Assembly (NCBI GenBank): GCA_963708295.1
Contig: CAVPSJ010000004.1
Span: forward strand, 448,001 to 512,000
DNA: 64,000 nt
Reading direction: 5' to 3'
DNA from: an uncultured delta proteobacterium
GTDB taxonomy: Bacteria > Desulfobacterota > BSN033 > UBA1163
Both the position numbers and the translations under genes were made by a program. Shown piece by piece: positions 9,743-53,135 of the stretch (position 1 is its first letter; every line of letters starts with the position of its first letter). A model generated the notes under the pieces. The model was not told the DNA's origin, searched no databases, and was given only the letters and a program-made list of their open reading frames with translations.

Positions 9743-10225
9743 ATGTTTGAAACGATCAGATTCAAGCTCAATCGTAAACCGACGGTGATGACGATAGACG
9801 GAGAGCGAAAGCTTTTATGGGTGCTGCGTTCCGATTTTGGCCTCACCGGAACAAAGTATGGTTGCGGAGAGGGACTCTGCGGAGCCTGTACCGTCTTGAT
9901 TAACAACAAGGCGACCCGCTCGTGTCAGCTTCCGGTGAGAGAGATCAAAGGGAAAGAAGTGATCACCATTGAAGGGCTGGCGAGGGCCGGAAATCTCCAC
10001 CCGCTCCAGAAGGCCTTTATAGACCACGATGCCCTCCAATGCGGCTTTTGTACTCCGGGAATGATTCTGAGCGCCTATAGCCTGCTTCTGGAGAAGCCAA
10101 AACCTACGGAAGCAGAAATCATCGAGGGGATGAACGAAAACCTGTGCCGCTGTGGAGCTCACCTTCGGATTGTCCAGGCGATTCAACACGCCGCCCAGGA
10201 AATGGCGGGAGGAGGAAAAGGATGA
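9743..10225 (+). CDS. (2Fe-2S)-binding small subunit, IorA/CoxS family (module 1)
   Basis: GTKYGCGEGLCGACTV, SC, ALQCGFCTPG, NLCRCG. Confidence 0.95.
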   Translation: MFETIRFKLNRKPTVMTIDGERKLLWVLRSDFGLTGTKYGCGEGLCGACTVLINNKATRSCQLPVREIKGKEVITIEGLARAGNLHPLQKAFIDHDALQCGFCTPGMILSAYSLLLEKPKPTEAEIIEGMNENLCRCGAHLRIVQAIQHAAQEMAGGGKG

Positions 10226-12387
10226 AAGAAGAACAATCGTCCGAGCTGGAACGCAAAGATGGAGAGAATCGACTTCCCCTTAGCCGGCGCGAATTCCTCA
10301 AGGCTGTGGGCGGAGGAATTATCATCTTTTTTTCCGTGGAAGATCTAGCAGCCCAGGAGAGACGGCCACCCGGTTACCAGGATTTACCAACGGATTTCAA
10401 TTCCTTCCTCAGGATTGGAGTCGACGGCCGGGTCACTTGTTTCACAGGTAAGATTGAAATGGGGCAGGGCATTGTAACCTCCCTCGCCCAGATGCTGGCT
10501 GATGAACTCGATGTCCCTTTAGACGCAGTCGATATGACCCTGGGGAATACGGACCTCTGTCCCTGGGATATGGGGACCTTCGGATCGCGCACGACGCGAT
10601 TCTTTGGGCCTCCTTTAAGAGAAGCAGCCGCCGAGGCGAGGGCCATCCTGATTCAATTGGCTTCAGAGCGCCTGCATTTAAGTGAGAGCGAATTGACCGC
10701 CAAAGAAGGTGTCGTGATAGATAAAAATAACAGCGGAAACCGGGTCACCTACGCCGAACTCGCAAAGGGGAAGTCGATCGAAAAGCACTTGCTGAAGAAA
10801 CCTTCATTAAAGAACGTTTCAGAGTTTTTGATTGTCGGGAAACCGGCCCTCCGTCGAGATGCGCTGGAGAAGGTAACCGGAAAGGCAAAATATGCCGGTG
10901 ACATTCGAATCCCAGGCATGCTGCATGCGAAAATCTTGAGACCTCCGGTTCATGGGGCCAAGCTAAAAAGCCTGGATACATCGGCTCTTCAAGAGGATAA
11001 GGAGATCAAGCTCGTTCAGGAACGGGATCTTATCGCAGTGCTCCATCTATACCCTGACAGGGCTGAACAGGCTCTCTCCAAAATCAAAACCAACTTTGAC
11101 CTGCCGGAAGCCAACGTCGACCCAAAGACCATCTTCAAACACCTCTTGAGCGTAGCTCCGGAAGGAGAAATCGTCACGCAAGGGGGAGATGTCCGTGAGG
11201 GGGAGCGAGCTGCCCGGGAAGCTTTTGAGGCAACCTACCTGAATCATTACGTCGCCCATGCGACCATCGAGACCCACACCGCTCTTGTCAAAGTCGAGAA
11301 AGATCGCGTGACCGTCTGGGCATCGACGCAGCGGCCTTTCGGAGCCAAAGAGGAAGTGGCCCAGGCATTGGGGATCCCCTCCAAAAATGTCCAGGTCATC
11401 TCTCCTTTTGTGGGAGGCGGATTCGGCGGAAAGAGTCAGAACAGGCAGGTCGTGGAGGCGGCACGCCTTTCAAAACTGACGGGAAGACCTGTTCAGGTTG
11501 CCTGGAGCCGAGAAGAAGAGTTCTTTTATGACACCTTCCGGCCGGCGGCGATCGTAAAGATCAGATCCGGTGTGACAGAGGCAAGTCAGATCGCTTATTG
11601 GGATTTTGATGTTTATTTTGCCGGACCCCGGGGGGCAGAACAGTTTTATGATATCCCACATCACCGGGAACTGTCCCACGGACATTACACGGGCATTCCA
11701 GGGGCCCACCCCTTCGGGACAGGACCCTGGCGGGCGCCTGGAAGTAATACGAACACCTTTGCGAGAGAATCGCAAATCGATCTCATGGCCACGAATTTGA
11801 AAATGGACCCGCTCGAATTCCGTCTGAAGAACCTGAGTGATCAAAGGATGATTAAAGTCCTGAAGGCCGCGGCTGAAAAATTTGGCTGGGGAGCCTCACC
11901 ATCCCCGAGCGGTCTGGGCTTTGGTGTGGCCTGCGCTACCGATGCGGGTGCGTATGTTGCCACTATGGCCGAAGTCGAAGTGGATCAGGAAAGTGGAAAG
12001 GTTCGTGTGAAGCGGATCGTCTGTGCACAGGACATGGGGCTGGTGATCAATCCCGAGGGAGCCAGGATCCAGATGGAAGGGAGTCTGGTGATGGGGCTGG
12101 GGTATGCGTTGACGGAAGAGGTCCGCTTCAACGGCGGAAGAATTTTTGACCGCAACTTCGATACTTATGAGATTCCCCGTTTCTCTTGGCTGCCAAAGAT
12201 CGAGACCCTGCTGGTTGAAAATTCGGGATTTCCTCCGGCGGGCGGAGGAGAACCATCCATTGTCTGCATGGGCGGAGTCATCGCCAACGCCATTTTCGAC
12301 GCCACGGGAGTCCGGCTATTCGAGCTCCCCATGACTCCGGAACGGATTAAAAATGCCCTGACCGAAGCTAAGGCCAAAAAGGCTTAG
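10222..12387 (+). CDS. Molybdopterin-binding large subunit, IorB/aldehyde oxidoreductase family, Tat signal (module 1)
   Basis: LSRREFLK twin-arginine motif, KIEMGQG, GGGFGGK, WRAPG, GGGEP. ATGA overlap with the small subunit. Confidence 0.93.
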   Translation: MKEEQSSELERKDGENRLPLSRREFLKAVGGGIIIFFSVEDLAAQERRPPGYQDLPTDFNSFLRIGVDGRVTCFTGKIEMGQGIVTSLAQMLADELDVPLDAVDMTLGNTDLCPWDMGTFGSRTTRFFGPPLREAAAEARAILIQLASERLHLSESELTAKEGVVIDKNNSGNRVTYAELAKGKSIEKHLLKKPSLKNVSEFLIVGKPALRRDALEKVTGKAKYAGDIRIPGMLHAKILRPPVHGAKLKSLDTSALQEDKEIKLVQERDLIAVLHLYPDRAEQALSKIKTNFDLPEANVDPKTIFKHLLSVAPEGEIVTQGGDVREGERAAREAFEATYLNHYVAHATIETHTALVKVEKDRVTVWASTQRPFGAKEEVAQALGIPSKNVQVISPFVGGGFGGKSQNRQVVEAARLSKLTGRPVQVAWSREEEFFYDTFRPAAIVKIRSGVTEASQIAYWDFDVYFAGPRGAEQFYDIPHHRELSHGHYTGIPGAHPFGTGPWRAPGSNTNTFARESQIDLMATNLKMDPLEFRLKNLSDQRMIKVLKAAAEKFGWGASPSPSGLGFGVACATDAGAYVATMAEVEVDQESGKVRVKRIVCAQDMGLVINPEGARIQMEGSLVMGLGYALTEEVRFNGGRIFDRNFDTYEIPRFSWLPKIETLLVENSGFPPAGGGEPSIVCMGGVIANAIFDATGVRLFELPMTPERIKNALTEAKAKKA

Positions 12388-12410
12388 GGAGTTGGGCTTT
12401 AAAATTTCAC

Positions 12411-12440
12411 TTGACTAAGCCAGATTGTTATATGTAGAAT
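12411..12440 (+). promoter_or_regulatory. Possible sigma70 promoter for module 2
   Basis: TTGACT-N18-TAGAAT, about 220 nt upstream of the ATG at 12663. Confidence 0.4.
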
Positions 12441-12662
12441 TTATCCGTTTTCGTATGCTGTAATCCTTAACTTCGCACATCACATCATCTTAAACTTCTG
12501 GTTTCACTCATGGAAAGGGATGGCCAGAAGAAGTCGATACCAGACCTCCGGGGAAGAGATACCCCGAAGACTTCTTGCGATATTCGGAACCCAAACCCTG
12601 ATTGAGGGTGTACAACCCGAAGCGTGGGGGAATTGCCTACCAGTACAAGAAAGGAGGATATC

Positions 12663-13121
12663 ATGATTTCTCTCAATGTCAACGGCAAGAACTACAAGGT
12701 AGATGTCTCAGAGGATGTGCCCCTCCTCTGGGTTATCAGAGACTATTTGAAACTCACGGGCACCAAGTTTGGTTGTGGGATCGGAGAATGCGGCGCATGC
12801 ACGGTTCATATCGATGGCAAGGCAGAGAGGTCCTGCGGGATTCCTGTTGGGAAAGCCCAGGGCAAAAAGATTACCACCATCGAAGGGCTTCCTGAAAATC
12901 ATCCTGTCAAGAGGGCGTGGATCAAGGAACAGGTTGTCCAGTGCGGTTATTGCCAGCCCGGGATCATGATGCAGGTGGCTGCCCTTATCTCATCAAAGCC
13001 CAAACCCAGCGCGGATCAGGTCATCAGCGCCATGGATGACGTCATCTGCCGATGCGGGACTCATCCCCGTATTAAACGCGGCATAAAAGCCGCTTTAGAC
13101 ATCATGAGAAAGGAGGGTTGA
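12663..13121 (+). CDS. (2Fe-2S)-binding small subunit, IorA family (module 2)
   Basis: GTKFGCGIGECGACTV, VVQCGYCQPG, ICRCG. RBS AAGGAGG. Confidence 0.95.
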   Translation: MISLNVNGKNYKVDVSEDVPLLWVIRDYLKLTGTKFGCGIGECGACTVHIDGKAERSCGIPVGKAQGKKITTIEGLPENHPVKRAWIKEQVVQCGYCQPGIMMQVAALISSKPKPSADQVISAMDDVICRCGTHPRIKRGIKAALDIMRKEG

Positions 13122-13124
13122 GCC

Positions 13125-15309
13125 ATGATGAATAAACCTATCTCACGACGCTCATTTTTGAAGATGACAGGTCTGACCATCGCAGTCTCCGCAACACCTT
13201 TCGGTTACGATGTTATAAACGCCTCCGCTCAGAAAGAAGGCTCCTTCAAACCCAATGTGTGGTTTGAGATAACGCCTAACAATAGGATCACAATGACGAT
13301 GGGACCCTCTGAGATGGGGCAAGGAACCCATACCGCACTGGGCATGGTCATCGCCGACGAGCTGGAAGCAGACTGGAAGCAGGTCCGTATCGTCCAGGGA
13401 CCGGCCAGCGATGCATTTAAAAACCCCGCCATGGGCGACCAGATCACTGTGGCAAGCGCAAGTGTGAGGGGGTTCTATGAACCTTTACGAAAAGCAGGGG
13501 CCGCGGGGAGAGCCATGCTTGTCACCGCTGCTGCTCAGACTTGGAAGGTGCCGGAAGGGGAGTGCACCGCTCTCAACGGGACGGTGAAACATAAAAAGAG
13601 TAATCGCAGCCTCACCTACGGCCAGCTATGTCTGAGTGCCGCCAAACTTCAGATTCCAAAGGAGCCCCGCCTCAAGAATGAAAGCGAGTTCAAGTACATC
13701 GGTAAACCCATGCCCCGTGTGGACATACCTGAGAAAGTTGCCGGCAAATCGATTTACGGCCTTGATGTTAAAGTTCCGGAGATGCTGTACGGGGTGATCG
13801 CCCGTCCATCGGCGTACGGAGCAAAACCTGTTTCCTTTGATCAGAAGGCAGCGGAAGGCGTCAAGGGGGTGCGGAACGTCGTTCCTACCCCGATGGGTAT
13901 TATCGTATGCGCGGAAACCCTGGATGCGGCGTGGAAAGGTCGAAACGCACTCAAAGTGCAGTGGGACAAGGGAACCCATCCTCAGATGGATAATGATTTT
14001 ATTGAAAAGACTTTTATGGAGGACCTGGATAAGCCAGGGTCTGCCGCCGCAAAAGTGGGGGATGCCCAGAAGGCTCTGGGTGAAGCTCAAAAAAAGGTCG
14101 AGGCCACCTACTTCGTCCCCTTTGTCGCCCATACCACGATGGAACCAATGAACTGCACGGCCCATGTGCAAAAGGATCGGTGCGACGTATGGGTTCCCAC
14201 ACAAGCTCAGCTGGTCTCCCGGATGCTCGCTGCACAATTCGCTGAATTGCCACCCGAGAAGGTCCAGATCCATACCACTCTGGTTGGCTGCGGGCTCGGC
14301 AGACGCGCTGCTCCGGATTTTGTAATCGAAGCGGTCGTGGCTTCAAAGGTCGCTGGAAAGCCGGTGAAGCTCGTTTGGACGAGAGAAGAGGACATCAAGT
14401 ATGATCTTTTTCGCGCTGCAACATGCCAGAGAGTTCAGGCGGGTCTCGACAGTCAAGGCCGTCTGATCGGCTGGTCCCATAAGGCCGTCGCTGGCTCCAT
14501 TATGAAGGATATTGACCCAAAAGGGATCATCAATGGAGTTGATATTATGAGCCTATGGGGACTCTTAGATTTTCCCGGTGCGCCAACGAATAATAGAATC
14601 ATGTATGAGATACCAAATTTCTACGTTGAATTCCTGCTGTCCAATCTCCCCATCCCTGTTTGTCCTTGGCGCGCCGTCCAGAATGGCCCCAATGCTTTTG
14701 TGATAGAGTGTTTCGTGGACGAAGTGGCCCATGCGGCCGCCAAAGATCCTCTGGAGTTCCGTTTGCAGCACTTAAAGAACAATATGCGTCCCCGAAGGGT
14801 CCTCGAAACGGTAGCCGAGAAGGCGGGGTGGGGAAAACCCTTAATGAAGGGACAGGGTCGCGGTATTGCCCAGCACTGCTGTTTTGGAAGTTACGTTGCT
14901 CAGGTTGCGGAGGTTTCTGTGAACGAGGGGAACGGAACCGTCAAGGTCAATCGGATCGTTGCTGCTGTTGATTGCGGCCCCTTTGTCAATCCAGACACGA
15001 TCAAAGCTCAAATCGAAGGAGCGGATTATAGAAGCTTTAAGCACTACGTTGAAAGAAGAAGTCATGTTTTCCAACGGTGGGGTTAAATCAGAAAACTTCG
15101 ATGATTACAAAATAATTAGGATGAGTGAGATTCCTGAAATAGAAGTTCATATTGTGAAGAGCACGGAACCAATCGGAGGGATCGGCGAGCCCGGTGTGCC
15201 CCCCTTGGCTCCCGCTGTGGCAAACGCAGTCTTTAATGCCACGGGTGCTCGCGTCAGGCGTATTCCCTTGACCCCACAAAGGGTTTTGGCCGCAATTCAA
15301 AAAAAGTGA
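13125..15309 (+). CDS. Molybdopterin-binding large subunit, IorB family, Tat signal (module 2), frameshift near 15020
   Basis: [26 protein letters not shown]. The C-terminus ([24 protein letters not shown]) continues in the 14959..15309 frame. Confidence 0.9.
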
Positions 15310-15326
15310 GAGTATAAGACGTCCCA

Positions 15327-15356
15327 GAGAGCCCCGCCCCGTGGGCGGGGCTCTTT
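15327..15356 (+). terminator. Hairpin terminator after module 2
   Basis: AGAGCCCCGCCC-CGT-GGGCGGGGCTCT followed by a short T tract. Confidence 0.65.
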
Positions 15357-15450
15357 ACCCCGTTAGGAATAATGCGCCGCTGCTCTGCAGCGAGATTGCA
15401 TTTTGAATAATCCCAAGGGGGGAAAGCTCCACTGGAATTCCTAACGGGGT
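15357..15450. mobile_element. 94-bp MITE-like element with perfect 14-bp terminal inverted repeats
   Basis: ACCCCGTTAGGAAT (15357-15370) ... ATTCCTAACGGGGT (15437-15450). No ORF. Confidence 0.7.
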
Positions 15451-15681
15451 TTACTTATCCCGAGTTGATTGATCTGCAATGGCGCTCCGGCCTCATCATC
15501 GATCCTGCCTTTGGCATCCGCCTTTTATCCTCGTTCCTCCTGGTGGCGAAGTCCTTACCGTAATCAGAATTTTCCTTGACAACGATACAGGCGATTGGTA
15601 ATAGTAATACCGTTTTGGGTCGGCTCACCACACCCAAGGGATAGATTTGGCCATTACGATAAACGAAGGAAGGAGGACATC

Positions 15682-16143
15682 ATGATTTCTCTCAATGTCA
15701 ACGGCAAGAACTATGCGGTAGATGTCTCGGATGACGTACCCCTGCTCTGGGTTTTGAGAGACCATCTGAAACTCATGGGCACCAAGTATGGTTGCGGGAT
15801 CGGAGAATGTGGCTCATGCACGGTCCATATTAACGGCAAGGCAGAGAGGTCTTGCGGGATCTCGGTGAAGGAAGCAACCGGGAAGAAAATTATCACCATC
15901 GAAGGGCTTCCTGAAAATCATCCGGTGAAAAGAGCCTGGATCGAGGAACAGGTTGTCCAGTGCGGTTACTGCCAGCCCGGGGTCATGATGCAGGTGGCCG
16001 CTCTCCTTTCTGAGAAGCCCACTCCAACGGCAGATCAAATCATCAGCAAAATGGACAACGTGATCTGCCGGTGCGGGACCTATCTGCGCATGAAAAAGGG
16101 TATCAAAACCGCTGTTCAGATGACGAGAAAGGAGGGCAAATAA
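15682..16143 (+). CDS. (2Fe-2S)-binding small subunit, IorA family (module 3)
   Basis: Near-duplicate of 12663..13121 (MISLNVNGKNY, ITIEGLPENHPVKRAWI, VVQCGYCQPG). Confidence 0.95.
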   Translation: MISLNVNGKNYAVDVSDDVPLLWVLRDHLKLMGTKYGCGIGECGSCTVHINGKAERSCGISVKEATGKKIITIEGLPENHPVKRAWIEEQVVQCGYCQPGVMMQVAALLSEKPTPTADQIISKMDNVICRCGTYLRMKKGIKTAVQMTRKEGK

Positions 16144-16145
16144 CC

Positions 16146-18347
16146 ATGAACCCGACCATATCACGTCGTTCATTTTTGAAAATAACAGGCCTGACGATAG
16201 GGGTCTCCGTCACCCCTTTTGGATACACCCTTCTCAATGCCGCTGAGAAAAGGGATTTCAACCCCAATGCATGGCTGCACATTACCTCGGACAACAAGGT
16301 AACCATATACATCGGCCAGTCCGAGATGGGCCAGGGCGTGCTGACCTCCCAATCCATGATCATTGCAGACGAACTGGAGGCGGATTGGAAGAAGGTCCAG
16401 ATCAAGCAGGGTGCGGCATTGGAAGGATTCAAGAGCCCCCTCTTTAAGGCCCAGATTACGGTGGCAAGCCAGAGCATGAGAGGGTTTTACGAGCCGCTGC
16501 GAAAGGCGGGTGCCGCAGGCAGGGCGATGCTCGTTAAGGCTGCGGCGGAAACCTGGAAGGTCCCTGAAAGTGAATGCAAGGGCGTGCTGGGGACCGTGAA
16601 GCACGAAAAGAGCAAACGCAGTCTCACCTATGGCCAGCTTTGCGAGAAGGCATCCAGGCTTGAAGTGCCTCAGAACCCTCCCCTCAAGAAGGAGGAAGAA
16701 TTCAGATATATGGGCAAGCCCATGCCCCGTGTGGATGTTCCGGAAAAAGTGAGAGGTAAAGCAATCTATGGTCTCGATGTCAACGATGGGAATGTCAAGG
16801 AACTGAAGGGAATGCTTTATGCGGTTATCGCCAAACCACCTGCCTACGGCGCAAAGCCTGTTTCCTTTGACCAAGCCGCTGCGGAAATGGTCAAAGGCGT
16901 GGTCAAGGTCATGCCGATTCCTATGGGGATTGCCGTATGCGCTACGTCCACCTACGCCGCGCTGAAGGGGAGGGATGCCCTCAAGGTACAGTGGGACAAC
17001 GGAAAGATCCCCGACCTGGACGATCAGTATGTTGAGAAGACTCTGCTAGGAGACCTCGACAAGCCGGGTCCTAAAGTCCACGAACTAGGGGATGTGAAAA
17101 AAGCCCTGGCTGAAGCACCGAAGAAGTTGGAGGCAACCTACTATGTCCCCACTGTAGCCCACGCCACCATGGAGCCCATGAATTGCACGGCCTGGGTTCA
17201 GAAAGACCGCTGCGACGTCTGGGCTTCCACACAGGGCCAGACAGGTGACCATGAGCTGGCTACAAAGATCTCCGGCTTGCCTCCGGAGAAAGTCTTCATC
17301 CACACGACCTTTCTCGGTTGCGGGTTGGGCAGACGTACCAGGCCCGATCGTGTACCCGAGGCCGTAACCATCTCGAAGGCCCTCGGAAAACCGGTCAAGG
17401 TGACGTGGACGCGCGAAGAAGACTTCAAATACGACTGGTTTCGCGCTCCCATTGCTCACCGGATTCAGGGCGGCGTGGATGCCCAGGGTCAGTTGGTCGC
17501 CTGGTCCCACAAAGGCGCGAGTATTTCCATCACGAAGAGCGTCAACCCCGCTGCTGAGCTGAAAGGCGGGATTGACTGGTATATGCTGTGGGGTCTATGG
17601 ATGGGGCCAACGGAGCCGCTCCAATGGAACACCAAGATCCAGTATGAAATACCGAACTTCTACATCGAATTTAACCTGTCCGATCTTCCCATACCCACCT
17701 GTCCATGGCGCTCGGTCGTGGTTGCTCAGCACGCTTTTGCGATAGAGAGTTTCATGGATGAGTTGGCCAGCGCCGCCGGTAAGGATCCTCTCGAGTTCCG
17801 GCTCCAGAGCCTGAAGAACAACAAGCGGGCCAGCCGCGTGCTCGAGACCGTGGCGGAGAAGGCCGGGTGGGGCAAGCCCATCCCTCAAGGTCAAGGCCGG
17901 GGTATTGCCCAGGCAGCCTGCTTCGGCTCCTGGGTCGCGCACGTGGTGGACCTCTCGGTGGACAAGAGTACCGGCAAGATCAAGGTTCATAAGGTTTTTG
18001 TGGCCGTCGATTGCGGACCGGTGATCAATCCCGGGCCCCTTGTAGAGCAAATGGAATCCGGGATCATGATGGGTCTGAGCACGGCACTGAAAGAGCAGGT
18101 CAAGTTTGCCAAGGGCGGCGTGGCCACGTCGAATTACGACGACTACCCCATCCTCCGGATGAGTGAAGCGCCCGAGATCGAGGTTCACATGGTAAAAAGT
18201 ACCGATAAGATCGGCGGCATCGGCGAGCCCGGTGTCCCGCCCCTAGCGCCTGCCGTTGCGAACGCGGTCTTTAACGCGACGGGGGTGCGAATCAGGCGTA
18301 TTCCCATGACCCCGGAAATAGTACTGGCTGCGCTCAAGAACAAGTGA
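16146..18347 (+). CDS. Molybdopterin-binding large subunit, IorB family, Tat signal (module 3)
   Basis: [33 protein letters not shown]. Paralog of module 2. Confidence 0.95.
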
Positions 18348-48034: not shown

Positions 48035-48063
48035 TTGACAGAGTAAACATATTGTATTATATT
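48035..48063 (+). promoter_or_regulatory. Sigma70 promoter upstream of the RHH-pom cluster
   Basis: TTGACA-N17-TATATT, overlapped by TATTGT direct repeats. Confidence 0.7.
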
Positions 48064-48093: not shown

Positions 48094-48276
48094 TTGCCAG
48101 AGAAGAAGATCGCCCGTACGATCTACATTAAAGACGTGCAATTGGAGGCTTTGAAGAGACTATCCGAGAAGACCAAAGTCCCCCAGTCTGTCTATGTCAG
48201 GGAGGCCTTGGATATGCTATTGGAGAAATATTCGGAACAGTTGAAATTTGAATTCAAAGAATATTTCAAAGGATAA
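48094..48276 (+). CDS. Ribbon-helix-helix protein, CdbA-like
   Basis: KKIARTIYI..QLEALKRLSEKTKVPQSVYVREALDMLLEKY resembles M. xanthus CdbA as recalled (KKxSTTIYI...KTKVPVAEYIRQGIDLVLEKY). RBS GGAGG, TTG start. Confidence 0.8.
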   Translation: MPEKKIARTIYIKDVQLEALKRLSEKTKVPQSVYVREALDMLLEKYSEQLKFEFKEYFKG

Positions 48277-48318: not shown

Positions 48319-49056
48319 GTGGATTGTTTCCGATTGGCTTATTTGAAATCGCCAGGGTTAGAAAAGGGCTTTGAAGAGTCTTTCCCGTCCGATACCAACG
48401 GGAAAGTTGCGAGTTCCTCCATCCCTCCTTCGGGAGATCAGATCCCCGTGACCCTCTCTTCTGAAGCCGTTCTGAGGCAGGCCAAGATTGATCTGAAGCA
48501 CCCCGATCGGCAGGTGAGAATCTTGGCGACAAGATATTATTTGGAAAAATCCTATCCCTCCATCCCTCTGTCTCTCCTCCAGGAAATTTTGTCTGACCGA
48601 GATCCAGATGTCAGATCTCAAGCCCTTCGTTCTCTTATTAAATTTCGGAGCCCCATCGTCCCCCCTTTGCTGCGAAAATATCTTAAGGATAGCGACCCGT
48701 GGGTCAGGATCGCCGCCCTCCGAGGAATGTTTCAATTTCAGGAGAAGATCGACCTGAACATCTTTCTGCGATTCTTGAGCGATGACTCTACCTGGGTGAG
48801 GCGGAAGGTGGCCACCTTATTGGGATGGGCTCAAATAGAGGGTGCCCTACCGATCCTGAAGGAGTTGTCAAGGGATGCCCATTCCATGGTGAGAAGAGCA
48901 GCCCTTTTTTCCCTGGCAACCCTTTATCCCGACGAGAGTGAGAATCTCTTGATGGAGGCCATGACCGATCCAGACCCGGAACTTCGAAAGTGGGCCAAAA
49001 CGACGTTAGAGAAAACATTGACCAGGCCGTCTAAAAGGAAGGACGGCTTCTCTTAA
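48319..49056 (+). CDS. HEAT-repeat protein, PomY-like by position
   Basis: Repeats LSDRDPDVRSQAL, LKDSDPWVRIAAL, LSDDSTWVRRKVA, SRDAHSMVRRAAL, MTDPDPELRKWA. Lies directly upstream of the PomZ-like ATPase. Confidence 0.75.
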   Translation: MDCFRLAYLKSPGLEKGFEESFPSDTNGKVASSSIPPSGDQIPVTLSSEAVLRQAKIDLKHPDRQVRILATRYYLEKSYPSIPLSLLQEILSDRDPDVRSQALRSLIKFRSPIVPPLLRKYLKDSDPWVRIAALRGMFQFQEKIDLNIFLRFLSDDSTWVRRKVATLLGWAQIEGALPILKELSRDAHSMVRRAALFSLATLYPDESENLLMEAMTDPDPELRKWAKTTLEKTLTRPSKRKDGFS

Positions 49057-49079: not shown

Positions 49080-50096
49080 GTGCCGATGACAGCCCAATCG
49101 CTGCCTCTGATTCAAAAAGCAGAGATCTTGAGAGATACCGTCTACTCGCCGACGGCTTTTGCCAACCTCCTTGGGATTTCGAAACATGAGCTCCTTGAGA
49201 AAGAGTCGGAAGGAATCCTCCCTGCTGCAAAGAGGAATTTGAATCGGGACCGCTACTATAAGCCGGAAGATGTCACCCGATATAGAAACGCCCTGGGGCT
49301 TGACTCTCCCATCAAGTCCATACGAAAGCAGCTCTTTCTCAACTTCAAGGGGGGAACAGGGAAGAGCACCATATCCGCCTCCTACGGTTTTCGCCTTGCC
49401 CAGATGGGAGTTCGAACACTGTTGATCGATTTGGATCCACAAGGCCACCTCACCCAATGCCTGGGCCTCAATAGTCAACAATTTTCAAAAACCCTGTTCA
49501 GTGCCTTGATCGAGAAGGAAGAGATTGAAAAAATTATCGTCAAAACAGACCTCCCCACATTGGATGTCATCCCCTCGAACCTCAACCTCTCACCCGTGGA
49601 ACTCTCGCTCTTCTCCATGAATTCGAGAGAGTTTCGATTGAGGAGGCTTATCTCTTCTCTGGAGAAGAACTACGAGCTGATTGTGATGGACGCCTCCCCC
49701 AGCATTGGACTCTTAAACCTGAATGCGATCCTTGCCTCGAATGATCTCATCATTCCCGTCCTAGCCGATTTCCTTTCCTATCACGGTCTCAAGATCCTTT
49801 TCGAGACCCTCTCCACGATCGAAGAGGACTTCTCTTTTGTCTTTGAGAATATTTTCATCTTCCTGAATCGTTACAATGAATCCCATCGAATCTGCAAACG
49901 TTCGAAGAAGGCCCTGGAAACCCACTATGAGCAGTATCTCCTCAACACGGTGATCCGGCAGGATACAAAGATTGCTGAGGCTACGAGTCAAGGGACCCCG
50001 ATTTTTCTTTTCGCTCAATCGTCAAAGGGGGCGGTGGATATCCAGAGCCTGATTGAGGAAATATTAGCTTTGAAAGGAGTAGATCATGTCGGATGA
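49080..50096 (+). CDS. pomZ: ParA/MinD-family ATPase with N-terminal MerR-like HTH, PomZ ortholog candidate
   Basis: Deviant Walker A KGGTGKST and DLDPQG. Segments RKQLFLNFKGGTGK, GLLNLNA, PVLADFLSYHGLKILFET, IRQDTK and SSKGAVDIQ match my recollection of M. xanthus PomZ/AgmE. Confidence 0.8.
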   Translation: MPMTAQSLPLIQKAEILRDTVYSPTAFANLLGISKHELLEKESEGILPAAKRNLNRDRYYKPEDVTRYRNALGLDSPIKSIRKQLFLNFKGGTGKSTISASYGFRLAQMGVRTLLIDLDPQGHLTQCLGLNSQQFSKTLFSALIEKEEIEKIIVKTDLPTLDVIPSNLNLSPVELSLFSMNSREFRLRRLISSLEKNYELIVMDASPSIGLLNLNAILASNDLIIPVLADFLSYHGLKILFETLSTIEEDFSFVFENIFIFLNRYNESHRICKRSKKALETHYEQYLLNTVIRQDTKIAEATSQGTPIFLFAQSSKGAVDIQSLIEEILALKGVDHVG

Positions 50097-50418
50097 ATTT
50101 ACCAACAACGTCGCACAAAAATTTCCCAACACGCTAAGTAAAGAGCCTATCGAAAGGCCATGGGATGTTTCGGAACCCAAGTCTATCTCCCCTCTGAGGA
50201 AGCCTATGGAAGAGTCCAAAAAGAATGATTTAGCAGAGCGCGTCGATATGCTCTATTCTGAGCTTCGTTCCTCGTTGACGGTTCGATCCGCCCTGGAATT
50301 CGACCTAAAGAAGGCCAACCGCATTCTGGAAGAAGTCAACCGGGTTAAAGCGGAAGTGGAAAAGGTCGTAGAAATGTTAAGGGTGATGGATGAATACATG
50401 AAAGAACGGATGAAGTAA
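50086..50418 (+). CDS. Short PomX-like coiled-coil protein
   Basis: N-terminal FTNNVAQKFP. The segment VDMLYSELRSSLTVRSALEFDL parallels IEDLHGQLLASAQTKKALEMDL of the next gene. RBS AAGGAG; overlaps the ATPase stop. Confidence 0.7.
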   Translation: MSDEFTNNVAQKFPNTLSKEPIERPWDVSEPKSISPLRKPMEESKKNDLAERVDMLYSELRSSLTVRSALEFDLKKANRILEEVNRVKAEVEKVVEMLRVMDEYMKERMK

Positions 50419-50492: not shown

Positions 50493-51329
50493 ATGAAGCC
50501 AAGAATTCAGACGGCCACGGCGGATGGTTTCGAAACGAACGTCGCCCAAAAGATGCCGAAGATTAGAAAGCTGGAAGAACCCCATACCCTCATCCTGGAG
50601 CAGGACTTCCCGCGGCAGGAAAAAGAAGGCGATCAAACACCCATCGATGATCAAACGTTCTTCCCGGAAATGAGTCTTTCGGAAAAACAGGCAGAGAGAA
50701 AGGCGATTTTTGAGTCTTCTCAGAAAGGGATCGCATCGGAATCGAGTCTGGACGTCCTGAAATTGATCGAAGACCTTCACGGTCAACTTCTCGCATCGGC
50801 TCAGACCAAGAAGGCCCTGGAGATGGATCTGGCTTCCTACAAGAAGAGTATCCAACAATTAAGCCAGGACAATCAGGAATTGCGCCGCCAGTGGGAGGCC
50901 CTGAGCAAAGAAGATCAGAAACTCAAAGAAATCCAGTCCGAATCGATCTATCTCCAAGAAGAACACACGGATGCCTTAGAGAGAATCAAAGAGTTTCAGC
51001 AGGAAATGAGAGAGATGAAGAAAGCCTTGACCCGGGTCACCCAAGAAAGAGAGGAAGCCTTGGATCGAATTCGTGAACTGGAATCCCAGGTCGAGCAGAC
51101 TGAGGTCATGAAGATCAAGGGCAAACTAAAAGAGAGAGAGGCCTCCCTTTTCTCCGAGGAGAACCGGGAGCTTCAGTCCAAGCTGGAAGAGGCCATCGCT
51201 CGCAATACGGACCTGGAGAAGAAGTATGAAGCCTTGAAGAAGTCCTTTGGTGAAGTCAGAGAATCGCTGACCTTTTTGAGGGATTCCTGTAAGGCAAATT
51301 ATTACAACCTTTCCGAAAGCGCCGATTAA
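50493..51329 (+). CDS. pomX: PomX-like protein (N-terminal activator peptide, linker, long C-terminal coiled coil)
   Basis: FETNVAQKMPKIR versus recalled PomX N-peptide FEQNVSRAKPRLR; about 190-aa heptad-rich C-terminus; RBS GAGGAGG. Confidence 0.7.
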   Translation: MKPRIQTATADGFETNVAQKMPKIRKLEEPHTLILEQDFPRQEKEGDQTPIDDQTFFPEMSLSEKQAERKAIFESSQKGIASESSLDVLKLIEDLHGQLLASAQTKKALEMDLASYKKSIQQLSQDNQELRRQWEALSKEDQKLKEIQSESIYLQEEHTDALERIKEFQQEMREMKKALTRVTQEREEALDRIRELESQVEQTEVMKIKGKLKEREASLFSEENRELQSKLEEAIARNTDLEKKYEALKKSFGEVRESLTFLRDSCKANYYNLSESAD

Positions 51330-51446: not shown

Positions 51447-53135
51447 TTGAAAATTCGATTAATTGATCCGGCGTACCAACATCCTTATATTAGCCACTCA
51501 CAAAAGGTGATTAAGGACATCTGGTTTGCTCGCCTCACACTGACCGCGCTGGCTGCCCTCACCCCCTCCGAGATCGAAGTGAAGATCACCGATGAGAATG
51601 TGGACCCAATTGACTTTGAAGAGGATGTGGATCTCGTCGGCCTGACCGGAATGGTCATGCATGCTCCACGGGCCTATCAAATTGCGCAGAAGTTTCGTCA
51701 AAGGGGAATCCCGGTCGTCATGGGTGGGCCTCACGCCTCAAGCCTTCCCCTCGAAGCCAAGGCACATGTGGATGCGGTGGTGATCGGTGAGGCGGAGGAT
51801 GTCTGGAAAGGGTTAATTGAAGATTACAAGAAGGGATGCCTCAAACCCTTTTATCGGAACGATCACTTCTGCTCGATGAAAAGACTTCCCTTTCCGAGGC
51901 TTGATCTCCTTCGGAAAGATGCTTATATGACGGTCAACTGCGTCCAGACAACCCGCGGCTGCCCTCATCAATGCGATTTTTGTCATGTCACCCATTTCTT
52001 CGGAAAGACCTACCGATGTCGACCCGTGGAAGAGGTGATCGAGGAGGTGGAACGTTTAGACGGTGAGTTTGTTGTCTTCATCGACGACAATATCGCCGGG
52101 AACCGCCAATATGCGAGGGAACTCTTCACGCAATTAAAGCCCCTCAGGAAAAAATGGGCCAGCCAGGCCAGTATGACGCTGACCCGAGACCCCGAACTTC
52201 TGAAACTCGCTGCGGAGAGCGGATGCGTTTCTCTGTTCATGGGGGTAGAGTCTCTGTCTGAGGAAAACTTGAAGGAGGTGAATAAAACCTTTAATCGAGT
52301 TTCCCAATTTGACGAGGCCATGAAGGCCGTTCACGACCACGACATCATGATCCTGGCCGGGTTCATTTTTGGGCTGGATCATGATGATGAAGGGGTCTTC
52401 GAAAGAACGCTCCGGTTCTGTGAACGGAACCGAATTGAACTGCCCACTTTCTTCATTCTTACCCCCTTGCCCGGGACAGCCTTATTTCAAAGGATGGAGT
52501 CCGAGGGCAGGCTCCTGCACAAGGATTGGGGGCAATATAACGGAGCCACCGTCGTTTTCAAGCCCAGGTTGATGACCGAGGAAACACTCCAGCGCGGATT
52601 TAATTGGGCATGCAAGGAGGGCTATTCCTGGAACTCCATCTTTAAGAGGGTTTTCCACCCCCAACAACGATTCTTTACAAGGGTGGTTTCAAATATTGCC
52701 TATCGAAGTATCGCACGAAGAACACCGGAGGGTTATCTTCCAAGCCTTTCACGGATTTTGCAGAAGATGAACGATACTCTCCCTCTCGAGAATACCCGGG
52801 ATTTGATTCAACAAGTCGGCGAGAAGATTACAGAGAAGAAACTTCTGATTGGTCAGAAAGCAGCCGATACGCTGAGACTCTATTCTATTTATAACGAGCG
52901 GCTTAAGACGCTTTTCGTCAGACTGGAAGGGTCCATGGATCGGGAAGCGGCGAAGGAACTGGTGAAAAGGCTCAAAGGGGTATTAAACGTGAAGATCCAA
53001 AAAGTCATCCTTGACTTTAAGGATGTGGGAGCATTTTCCTCGGAGGCAATTGCCCTGCTTTCCAGAAAGGGCCTTCTTCAAACAGAAGAAGGGAAACTTT
53101 GGATCGCTGTGAATCTACCGGGTATCCGTGATTAA
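51447..53135 (+). CDS. B12-binding-domain radical SAM protein with C-terminal STAS-like domain
   Basis: VVMGGPHAS, VIGEAE, TTRGCPHQCDFC (CxxxCxxC), FIDDNI, GVES, FIFGLDHD, TPLPGT. Tail VRLEGSMD...VILDFKDVGAFSSEAI. Confidence 0.9.
   Translation: MKIRLIDPAYQHPYISHSQKVIKDIWFARLTLTALAALTPSEIEVKITDENVDPIDFEEDVDLVGLTGMVMHAPRAYQIAQKFRQRGIPVVMGGPHASSLPLEAKAHVDAVVIGEAEDVWKGLIEDYKKGCLKPFYRNDHFCSMKRLPFPRLDLLRKDAYMTVNCVQTTRGCPHQCDFCHVTHFFGKTYRCRPVEEVIEEVERLDGEFVVFIDDNIAGNRQYARELFTQLKPLRKKWASQASMTLTRDPELLKLAAESGCVSLFMGVESLSEENLKEVNKTFNRVSQFDEAMKAVHDHDIMILAGFIFGLDHDDEGVFERTLRFCERNRIELPTFFILTPLPGTALFQRMESEGRLLHKDWGQYNGATVVFKPRLMTEETLQRGFNWACKEGYSWNSIFKRVFHPQQRFFTRVVSNIAYRSIARRTPEGYLPSLSRILQKMNDTLPLENTRDLIQQVGEKITEKKLLIGQKAADTLRLYSIYNERLKTLFVRLEGSMDREAAKELVKRLKGVLNVKIQKVILDFKDVGAFSSEAIALLSRKGLLQTEEGKLWIAVNLPGIRD

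What the first reader, a model, noticed from the sequence alone, without database searches (positions are those of the whole stretch)
50086..50418. Truncated second PomX-like gene lacking the basic activator residues: possible decoy or tuner
Seen: the 110-aa ORF overlaps the ATPase stop and repeats two blocks of the full-length neighbour (FTNNVAQKFP versus FETNVAQKMP; LYSELRSSLTVRSALEFDL versus LHGQLLASAQTKKALEMDL) but has only a short coiled coil. After the Pro it has N-T-L where the long copy has K-I-R. Established: basic residues in N-terminal peptides of ParA/MinD activators (PomX, ParB/Spo0J) are needed to stimulate hydrolysis. Inference: the short paralog may bind the ATPase or cap PomX filaments without activating hydrolysis, a regulatory component not known from M. 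xanthus.
Basis: partly seen in the sequence, partly recalled or inferred. Interest (0 to 1): 0.75.

Follow-up and report, generated by a model that had tools for sequence, protein, structure and literature searches.

The report
Conserved short PomX-like cell-division paralog
A group of uncultured anaerobic bacteria carries a version of the Myxococcus system that positions the division site, with an extra, strongly conserved, tail-less copy of the scaffold protein that probably tunes the motor and limits the scaffold, though no function has been shown.

Summary
The 110-aa gene is real, overlaps the ATPase stop by 11 nt and is an old, diverged paralog of the 278-aa coiled-coil neighbour, not an assembly duplicate. 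It is intact in 41 of 42 informative GTDB loci; the one loss leaves a remnant. It is under stronger purifying selection (omega 0.093) than the long copy (0.182). The ATPase carries PomZ signatures and the gene order is that of pomY-pomZ-pomX, outside the myxobacteria where the papers I read place the system.

The decoy reading is only partly supported. The short peptide lacks the R15 and R17 equivalents, fixed as N and mostly L. But it keeps an invariant K/R12, neither copy is basic at the K13 position, and in M. xanthus loss of both basics also sharply cut binding. The ATPase pocket here has lost three acidic residues. The short protein also keeps an R-P-W-D-V motif found in a sister family of full-length proteins and absent from its long neighbour.

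Best reading: a subfunctionalised, head-keeping, tail-less subunit that joins the scaffold, limits its growth and activates weakly. Binding and function are untested. New variant of a known kind.

The parts
48035..48063 (+). sigma-70-like promoter match (TTGACA-17-TATATT) ahead of the operon
   Evidence: 11 of 12 consensus match; 8 sites found in the region against 3.4 +/- 2.0 in shuffles; not evidence of function
48094..48276 (+). ribbon-helix-helix gene heading the operon (possible autoregulator or nucleoid-binding protein; inference)
   Evidence: Pfam RHH_3 E 1.2e-16; found in 39 of 44 loci
48319..49056 (+). HEAT-repeat protein in the pomY position; 245 aa, too short to hold PomY's N-terminal coiled coil or C-terminal activator region
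   Evidence: Pfam HEAT_2 E 2.7e-33; stop-to-stop frames 237-298 aa in 44 sequences, with a conserved N-terminal F-x-L-x-[YH]-L-K-S motif in 44 of 44; PomY is 682 aa
49086..50096 (+). PomZ-type ParA/MinD ATPase with an N-terminal MerR-like HTH (ORF finder starts at GTG 49080; relatives favour ATG 49086)
   Evidence: Pfam AAA_31, MerR_1; 13 of 24 M. xanthus PomZ residue labels identical at a fixed offset of 27, score 85 against next-best 7; gapless match by eye to the PomZ block of Fig. S12
50073..50079 (+). Shine-Dalgarno AAAGGAG of the short gene, inside the ATPase 3' end
   Evidence: sequence; an AAGGA core is seen before the start in 41 of 42 copies, AGGGAG in L023
50086..50418 (+). short PomX-like paralog, 110 aa (the finding)
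   Evidence: intact in 41 of 42 informative loci; 480 clusters of relatives; omega 0.093
50086..50136 (+). N-terminal peptide of the short protein (residues 1-17), in the same numbering as PomX NPEP: F5, N8, V9, P14 shared; K12, F13, N15
   Evidence: codons 5-17 dN/dS 0.015 with pS 0.72
50155..50169 (+). R-P-W-D-V motif (residues 24-28), shared with a sister family of full-length proteins and absent from the long neighbour
   Evidence: P25, W26, D27, V28 invariant in 32 of 32; profile match to the sister family E 1.1e-5, probability 82%; PW[DN] in 0 of 120 long-type relatives
50203..50412 (+). helical part of the short protein (residues 40-109), in heptad register with the first ~62 residues of the long coiled coil
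   Evidence: AlphaFold2 pLDDT 79-98 over residues 51-110; offset-39 comparison; hhalign
50493..51329 (+). full-length PomX-like protein, 278 aa: peptide (residues 9-25), disordered linker, 188-residue helix
   Evidence: AlphaFold2 helix 86-273, about 28 nm at 0.15 nm per residue, as PomX H4; present in 42 of 42 informative loci, cut by the contig end in L028; omega 0.182

Best explanation
The operon is a PomXYZ-type positioning system of an uncultured Desulfobacterota-like lineage, and the short gene is an old duplicate of the PomX-like scaffold gene that has split the ancestral jobs with it. SHOWN: real conserved gene; paralogy; tandem co-occurrence; stronger constraint than the long copy; fixed non-basic residues 15-16; kept K/R12; kept PW motif; loss of the last two thirds of the coiled coil. 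INFERRED: (1) it joins the long protein through the shared first ~60 coiled-coil residues or through its head; (2) having a head but no C-terminal tail it cannot continue head-to-tail growth, so it limits filament length or sets scaffold size; (3) its peptide still docks in the ATPase's PomX cleft through F5 and V9 and stimulates hydrolysis weakly (one basic residue left), so the short:long ratio tunes ATPase release; (4) its PW motif serves a contact the long copy gave up. It is an accessory tuner and terminator, not an inert decoy, and not strictly essential.
For: Intact in 41 of 42 informative loci, always between ATPase and long gene. Omega 0.093 against 0.182 for the long gene and 0.071 for the ATPase, 40 sequences. 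Codons 5-17 are the most constrained stretch measured, dN/dS 0.015, with synonymous sites near saturation. N15 is kept in 41 of 42 although one base change gives K. The hydrophobic PomX-pocket positions of the ATPase are kept or conservatively changed, and E219 is kept. Head-to-tail growth of PomX filaments is proposed to need the C-terminal part of H4, which the short protein lacks. Single K13A or R15A mutants were milder in vivo than the double. The N-terminal 29 residues match a full-length sister family while residues 41-79 match the long neighbour. The short clade has a long stem (1.60) and short tips (0.13 or less), the shape of a burst of change followed by constraint.
Against: No experiment. 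In M. xanthus the head-only fragment PomX 1-213 did not join clusters in vivo, though it bound the C-terminal half in a later pull-down. One genome (L015) has lost the gene with the rest of the operon and the pocket residues unchanged. The short-long similarity is weak (probability 44%), so the two coiled coils may no longer pair. Homology of the long protein to myxobacterial PomX is not shown by a sequence search: none of the 58 profile hits could be identified as PomX, and names for them could not be obtained. Single-mutant ATPase stimulation was not reported in the sections I read. A role in cell division in this lineage is assumed from the ATPase's kinship.
Confidence: 0.4

Rival explanations
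1. Pure decoy: the short peptide occupies the ATPase's PomX cleft without any stimulation, holding ATP-bound dimers on the scaffold and opposing the long protein.
For: Position 15 is N in 41 and S in 1 of 42 short proteins, but K/R in 43 of 43 long and 117 of 120 sister-family proteins. Net charge of positions 15-22 is -0.1 against +0.95 and +3.7. R15 is needed for PomX function. In ParB, R13 is needed for activation but not for binding, so bind-without-activate peptides are possible in this ATPase family.
Against: K/R12 is invariant. For PomX itself, loss of the basics dramatically reduced the PomZ interaction. Full-length relatives with T at 15 exist: 3 of 120 in the sister family and P0249. 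The pocket has lost acids E248, E256 and E275 in all 42 complete ATPases, so basic residues may matter less here.
Confidence: 0.2
2. Second activator: the short protein supplies the activity that PomY supplies in M. xanthus. Its peptide or PW motif binds the ATPase's second (alpha-5/ParB-type) cleft and works together with the long protein.
For: The HEAT protein is 237-298 aa stop-to-stop and ends soon after the repeats, whereas PomY's activator region is residues 496-682. Yet the alpha-5 pocket of the ATPase is kept: 5 of 8 residues identical, 3 changed (A to S, F to I, L to I), all invariant in 23 of 23. PomY activates without a basic peptide. The PW motif is hydrophobic and invariant.
Against: The PW motif also sits on full-length sister-family proteins, so it predates the short gene. 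The HEAT protein has its own conserved basic-hydrophobic N-terminal motif that could fill this cleft instead. The pocket lies at the dimer interface and may be conserved for structural reasons. L015 does without the gene.
Confidence: 0.2
3. Partner-switched adaptor: the peptide has stopped binding the ATPase and the short protein links the scaffold to something else (the HEAT protein or FtsZ), or replaces PomY's missing coiled coil in condensate formation.
For: PomY's N-terminal coiled coil is required and sufficient for condensates in vitro and has no counterpart on the HEAT protein here. The short protein is a disordered head plus a ~70-residue helix with a broadened hydrophobic face in its last third. 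Long stem branch.
Against: The residues kept invariant in the head include F5 and V9, which are modelled to face PomZ in PomX. The gene is translationally coupled to the ATPase.
Confidence: 0.14
4. Decaying duplicate, chance ORF or assembly artefact.
For: One genome of 42 has deleted it; the similarity to the neighbour is weak.
Against: Omega 0.093; length fixed at 109-112 aa in 42 of 42; conserved ribosome-binding site; 480 clusters of relatives; no DNA-level repeat.
Confidence: 0.02

Closest known systems
PomX of Myxococcus xanthus (MXAN_0636; PMC7993993, PMC11725790)
   Same: N-terminal peptide with F5, N8, V9, P14 in the same numbering; peptide-linker-coiled-coil layout; position after the ATPase gene. 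The long neighbour's helix has the length of PomX H4.
   Different: The short protein has about 70 instead of about 185 helical residues and no C-terminal tail; K13 position F, R15 position N; net acidic head; carries a PW motif not in the published 22-residue PomX peptide. No second pomX copy appears in the passages I read ('paralog' 0 occurrences in PMC7993993).
PomXYZ system of myxobacteria (Cystobacterineae)
   Same: Gene order HEAT protein - ATPase - coiled coil, as mxan_0634-0635-0636; PomZ signature residues.
   Different: Found in uncultured 'Thermodesulfobacteriota / Syntrophaceae / delta proteobacterium' genomes; two PomX-like genes; HEAT protein reduced to the repeats; an RHH gene upstream; PomX pocket less acidic.
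ParB/Spo0J and MinE N-terminal activator peptides
   Same: Short N-terminal peptide with hydrophobic anchors and one conserved basic residue next to a ParA/MinD ATPase.
   Different: No ParB or MinE domain (Pfam and NCBIfam scans); the head is net acidic.
Unnamed sister family of ~250-350-aa coiled-coil proteins (alignment A4; e.g. P0263, P0299, P0302)
   Same: Peptide starts at residue 1 in the same register and is followed by R-P-W-N-V; matches short residues 1-29 (probability 82%) and the long protein end to end (99%).
   Different: Full length and strongly basic after the Pro; its genomic context, and whether it has a short partner, were not checked.

Membership tests
PomX | Conserved N-terminal peptide (NPEP) with hydrophobic anchors F5, V9 and P14 | tested here: met
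   F5, N8, V9, P14 identical in the same numbering as the published peptide; compared by eye
PomX | Basic residues K13 and R15 needed for activation | tested here: not met
   F13 in 42 of 42 and N15 in 41 of 42; K/R12 kept. The long copy has M13 and K/R15
PomX | Long (~180-residue, 28-nm) C-terminal coiled coil that polymerises | tested here: not met
   Short: helices 40-63 and 66-109. The long neighbour meets the length: helix 86-273. Polymerisation not tested
PomX | Encoded with pomZ and pomY in the order pomY-pomZ-pomX | tested here: met
   HEAT-ATPase-short-long order in the loci; M. xanthus locus tags 0634-0635-0636
PomX | Detectable sequence homology to the myxobacterial PomX coiled coil | tested here: inconclusive
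   Profile of the long family gave 58 hits, none identifiable as myxobacterial PomX; no PomX sequence was held for a direct comparison
PomX | Stimulates PomZ ATPase, binds PomY, scaffolds the cluster | not testable with these tools
   Needs biochemistry
PomZ (neighbouring ATPase) | ParA-type catalytic and DNA-binding residues (D90, K268) plus PomZ-specific pocket residues | tested here: met
   Fixed offset 27, 13 of 24 identical, score 85 against 7; D90 and K268 kept (one label, K66, was recalled rather than read); block matches PomZ rather than ParA rows of Fig. S12
PomY (HEAT neighbour) | N-terminal coiled coil + HEAT repeats + C-terminal disordered region with alpha-5 and gD domain | tested here: not met
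   HEAT repeats only, 245 aa against 682 aa; orthology to PomY rests on position and repeats alone
ParB or MinE activators | ParB or MinE domain | tested here: not met
   No such family at E 0.1 in Pfam or NCBIfam

The most novel reading that the evidence does not exclude
A four-component Pom-type divisome positioner outside myxobacteria in which one scaffold gene has split into a polymerising activator and a dedicated, selected chain-terminating modulator that holds ATPase dimers with little or no hydrolysis. It would be a built-in size and speed control for a ParA/MinD cargo, working with a PomY stripped of its condensate and activator regions.
Probability: 0.3. Interest if true: 0.8.

Novelty: new variant of a known kind. 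Interest (0 to 1): 0.58.

Why it matters
How the Pom scaffold's size and number are controlled, and how activator peptides separate binding from stimulation, are open questions in the papers read. This locus offers a natural matched pair of peptides for one ATPase, differing at fixed positions 13, 15, 16 and 17, and a natural tail-less subunit. Both questions become testable with synthetic peptides and three small recombinant proteins. It also extends PomZ-based positioning to an uncultured non-myxobacterial lineage with a HEAT-only PomY, which bears on what the minimal system is. The weight is limited by the narrow lineage, the lack of a cultured host among the loci, and the absence of functional data.

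Tried and rejected
Complex prediction of the ATPase dimer (residues 74-334 of alignment A3's first row, with ATP and Mg) and two copies of short residues 1-34 returned 'no answer' (score 0.00 in both runs, controls not folded). It is evidence neither for nor against binding, and no second job was available for the long peptide or the short-long pair.

No family for the short protein in Pfam or NCBIfam above a curated cut-off. No PDB relative by profile (best E 0.13) or by Foldseek (best E 6). No tblastn match in plasmids or phages. The ESM Atlas gave only unnamed clusters for the short protein, and unnamed or generic coiled-coil clusters for the long.

Assembly duplication rejected. Read-through or frameshift fusion of short and long rejected: separate starts and spacers of 24-252 nt. 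A three-family tree on 92 columns separates short, long and sister families but is unrooted and cannot order the duplication. I considered the block V66-R-S-A-L as a PomY alpha-5 mimic and rejected it because the long protein shares the block. An H3-connector reading of short helix 40-63 was dropped because the matching stretch of the long model is part of one continuous helix.

Names and hosts of the distant profile hits could not be looked up. Automatic class labels follow submitters' titles and are not informative.

Full report
1. Observation. The ORF is as described: 50086-50418, 110 aa, starting 11 nt before the end of the ATPase gene, with AAAGGAG at 50073-50079. The two blocks shared with the 278-aa neighbour are present. 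BLASTP gives 25% over 140 columns, E 4e-5, and profile-profile comparison aligns short 41-79 with long 80-118 at E 2.3e-4, probability 44%. As a control, a profile of the long family run over 3434 ORFs from the 44 loci and the window scored all 42 short proteins (median 16.8 bits, range 9.3-21.8) against a best unrelated ORF of 13.0 bits, so the weakest short copies overlap the background. A peptide motif drawn from the two families is in 42 of 42 short, 42 of 42 long and 0 of 3350 other ORFs. The two genes share only 19 of 30 and 27 of 57 bases in the two blocks and there is no second copy in the window, so this is an old duplication and not an assembly repeat.

2. The gene is real and selected. 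A protein search found 480 clusters with E up to 0.001 among 483 candidates; the 120 listed are all 110 aa and 82-95% identical. I scanned GTDB genomes with the ATPase, so as not to select for the short gene, and got 44 loci at 78-93% identity, titled Thermodesulfobacteriota, Syntrophaceae, Syntrophorhabdus, delta proteobacterium or uncultured bacterium; all are metagenome-assembled. Two loci (L040, L041) end before the position. Of the other 42, 41 hold an intact 109-112-aa short gene directly after the ATPase, and all 42 hold the long gene (cut by the contig end in L028). L015 keeps the start and about eight codons, then unrelated sequence up to the long gene; it sits inside a clade of eight (support 97/96) whose other seven members have the gene, so this is a secondary loss or a local misassembly. 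On 40 sequences (L015, L028, L040, L041, L044 left out) omega is 0.093 for the short gene, 0.182 for the long, 0.071 for the ATPase and 0.206 for the HEAT gene. Codons 5-17 of the short gene have pN 0.035, pS 0.72, dN/dS 0.015, the lowest of the twelve segments measured; one segment gave no ratio because of saturation, which makes all segment ratios rough.

3. The neighbourhood is Pom-like. The order is RHH, HEAT, HTH-ParA ATPase, short, long. Residue labels of M. xanthus PomZ taken from the preprint map at one fixed offset, 13 of 24 identical, score 85 against 7 for the next offset (the label K66 is recalled). The PomZ rows of the paper's Fig. S12 match the ATPase without gaps by eye, about 33 of 71 identical in the last block, and share the P-V-L-A-D-F-L-S signature that the ParA rows lack. 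The long protein folds as one 188-residue helix, the length given for PomX H4 (28 nm). The ATPase assignment is strong. The PomX assignment rests on position, peptide and architecture: a profile search of 1.84 billion representatives gave 58 hits, none identifiable as myxobacterial PomX. The HEAT protein is 245 aa and cannot hold PomY's coiled coil (5-106) or activator region (496-682).

4. What the peptide has and lacks. In register with the published PomX peptide, the short protein has F5, N8, V9 and P14 in the same numbering. Position 12 is K/R in 42 of 42 short, 43 of 43 long and 120 of 120 sister-family proteins (2 of 122 not in register and left out). Position 13, the K13 site, is F in the short and M in the other two. 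Position 15 is N (41) or S (1) in the short, K/R in 43 of 43 long and 117 of 120 sister proteins. So the short protein has lost the basic run after the proline, and selection holds it lost, but it keeps the family's one invariant basic residue. In M. xanthus the double mutant lost activation and was dramatically reduced in PomZ interaction; single mutants were milder in vivo. In the ATPase here the hydrophobic pocket positions and E219 are kept, while E248, E256 and E275 are non-acidic and Q271 is E in all 42 complete copies. These points weaken the pure-decoy reading without excluding it; for ParB a basic residue is needed for activation but not binding.

5. An unexpected third piece. The profile search found a sister family of full-length proteins that begin at the peptide and continue with R-P-W-N-V at 23-27 (145 hits, named only as Deltaproteobacteria, Thermodesulfobacteriota or Syntrophaceae where named). 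It matches the long protein end to end (99%) and short residues 1-29 (82%, E 1.1e-5). The short protein has R-P-W-D-V at 24-28; 0 of 120 long-type relatives have PW[DN] in their first 90 residues. The simplest reading is that an ancestor had peptide, PW motif and full coiled coil, and that after duplication the long copy kept the basic run and tail while the short copy kept the PW motif and the start of the coil. The order of events is inferred: the tree is unrooted and the sister family's gene context was not seen.

6. Mechanism. PomX filaments are proposed to grow head-to-tail through the C-terminal part of H4. A subunit with head and coil start but no tail would terminate chains. With one basic residue and intact hydrophobic anchors it would bind and activate weakly. 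I give this combined tuner-terminator reading 0.40, a pure decoy 0.20, a second activator standing in for PomY 0.20, a partner-switched adaptor 0.14 and decay or artefact 0.02. Against the best reading: a head-only PomX fragment did not join clusters in vivo, the short-long coil similarity is low, and one genome does without the gene. No step of binding or activity is shown.

7. Literature and novelty. Six searches listed no paper on a second pomX or on Pom genes in Desulfobacterota; I saw only the top listings (30 of 38; 20 of 218; 9 of 11; 15 of 59). The library lacks most subscription papers. What I saw: PMC7993993 abstract, sections 5, 7, 8, first part of the discussion and passages. bioRxiv 10.1101/2025.12.01.691545 abstract, sections 5, 12, 14, 15, first part of 13 and passages; its own supplements were not read, but parts 1, 3 and 4 of 7 of the supplement of the published version PMC13170346 were. 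PMC11725790 passages and section 8. PMC10307791 passages. PMC3910319 passages. These place the system in myxobacteria. Schumacher 2017 and Treuner-Lange 2013 were not read and may list PomZ elsewhere; unread supplements and figure images may bear on homolog lists. From recall only, genome names such as RBG_16_49_23 belong to GTDB Desulfobacterota class BSN033.

8. Verdict. A real, strongly conserved, tail-less PomX-like paralog in a reduced Pom-type operon outside myxobacteria. It fails PomX membership on two defining features but plausibly works within the same machine. New variant of a known kind; interest 0.58.

Noticed in passing
window 48319-48360 (N-terminus of the HEAT gene): A basic-hydrophobic motif F-x-L-x-[YH]-L-K-S is conserved in 44 of 44 copies ahead of a variable linker; it could be an ATPase- or FtsZ-binding peptide replacing PomY's missing parts.
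   Followed up: partly
window 49086-50096: The ATPase keeps the PomY alpha-5 pocket although the HEAT protein has no alpha-5 region, and has lost three acids of the PomX pocket.
   Followed up: partly
window 48094-48276: RHH_3 gene at the head of the operon behind a strong promoter match; present in 39 of 44 loci, absent in L014, L024, L025, L039 and beyond the contig end in L044.
   Followed up: no
L015 7001-7104: Remnant of the short gene (about eight codons, then unrelated sequence whose stop overlaps the long gene's start): a natural deletion or a misassembly.
   Followed up: yes
proteins of alignment A4 (P0263, P0270, P0275 and relatives): Unannotated sister family of full-length PomX-like coiled coils with the PW motif, 145 hits; suggests Pom-like systems in further deltaproteobacterial lineages. 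Context not seen.
   Followed up: partly
proteins P0249, P0278, P0336, P0404: Full-length PomX-like proteins with T at the R15-equivalent position.
   Followed up: no
window 51447-53135: B12-binding radical SAM protein with a C-terminal STAS-like domain follows the long gene in 26 of 44 loci; probably synteny rather than part of the system.
   Followed up: no
window 50493-50528: The long protein has an 8-residue extension before the peptide register, variable across relatives (dN/dS 0.20 over residues 1-12), which the short protein and the sister family lack.
   Followed up: no
window 10144-18344: Three xanthine-dehydrogenase-like molybdenum-binding subunit ORFs in a row, all below curated cut-offs.
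   Followed up: no
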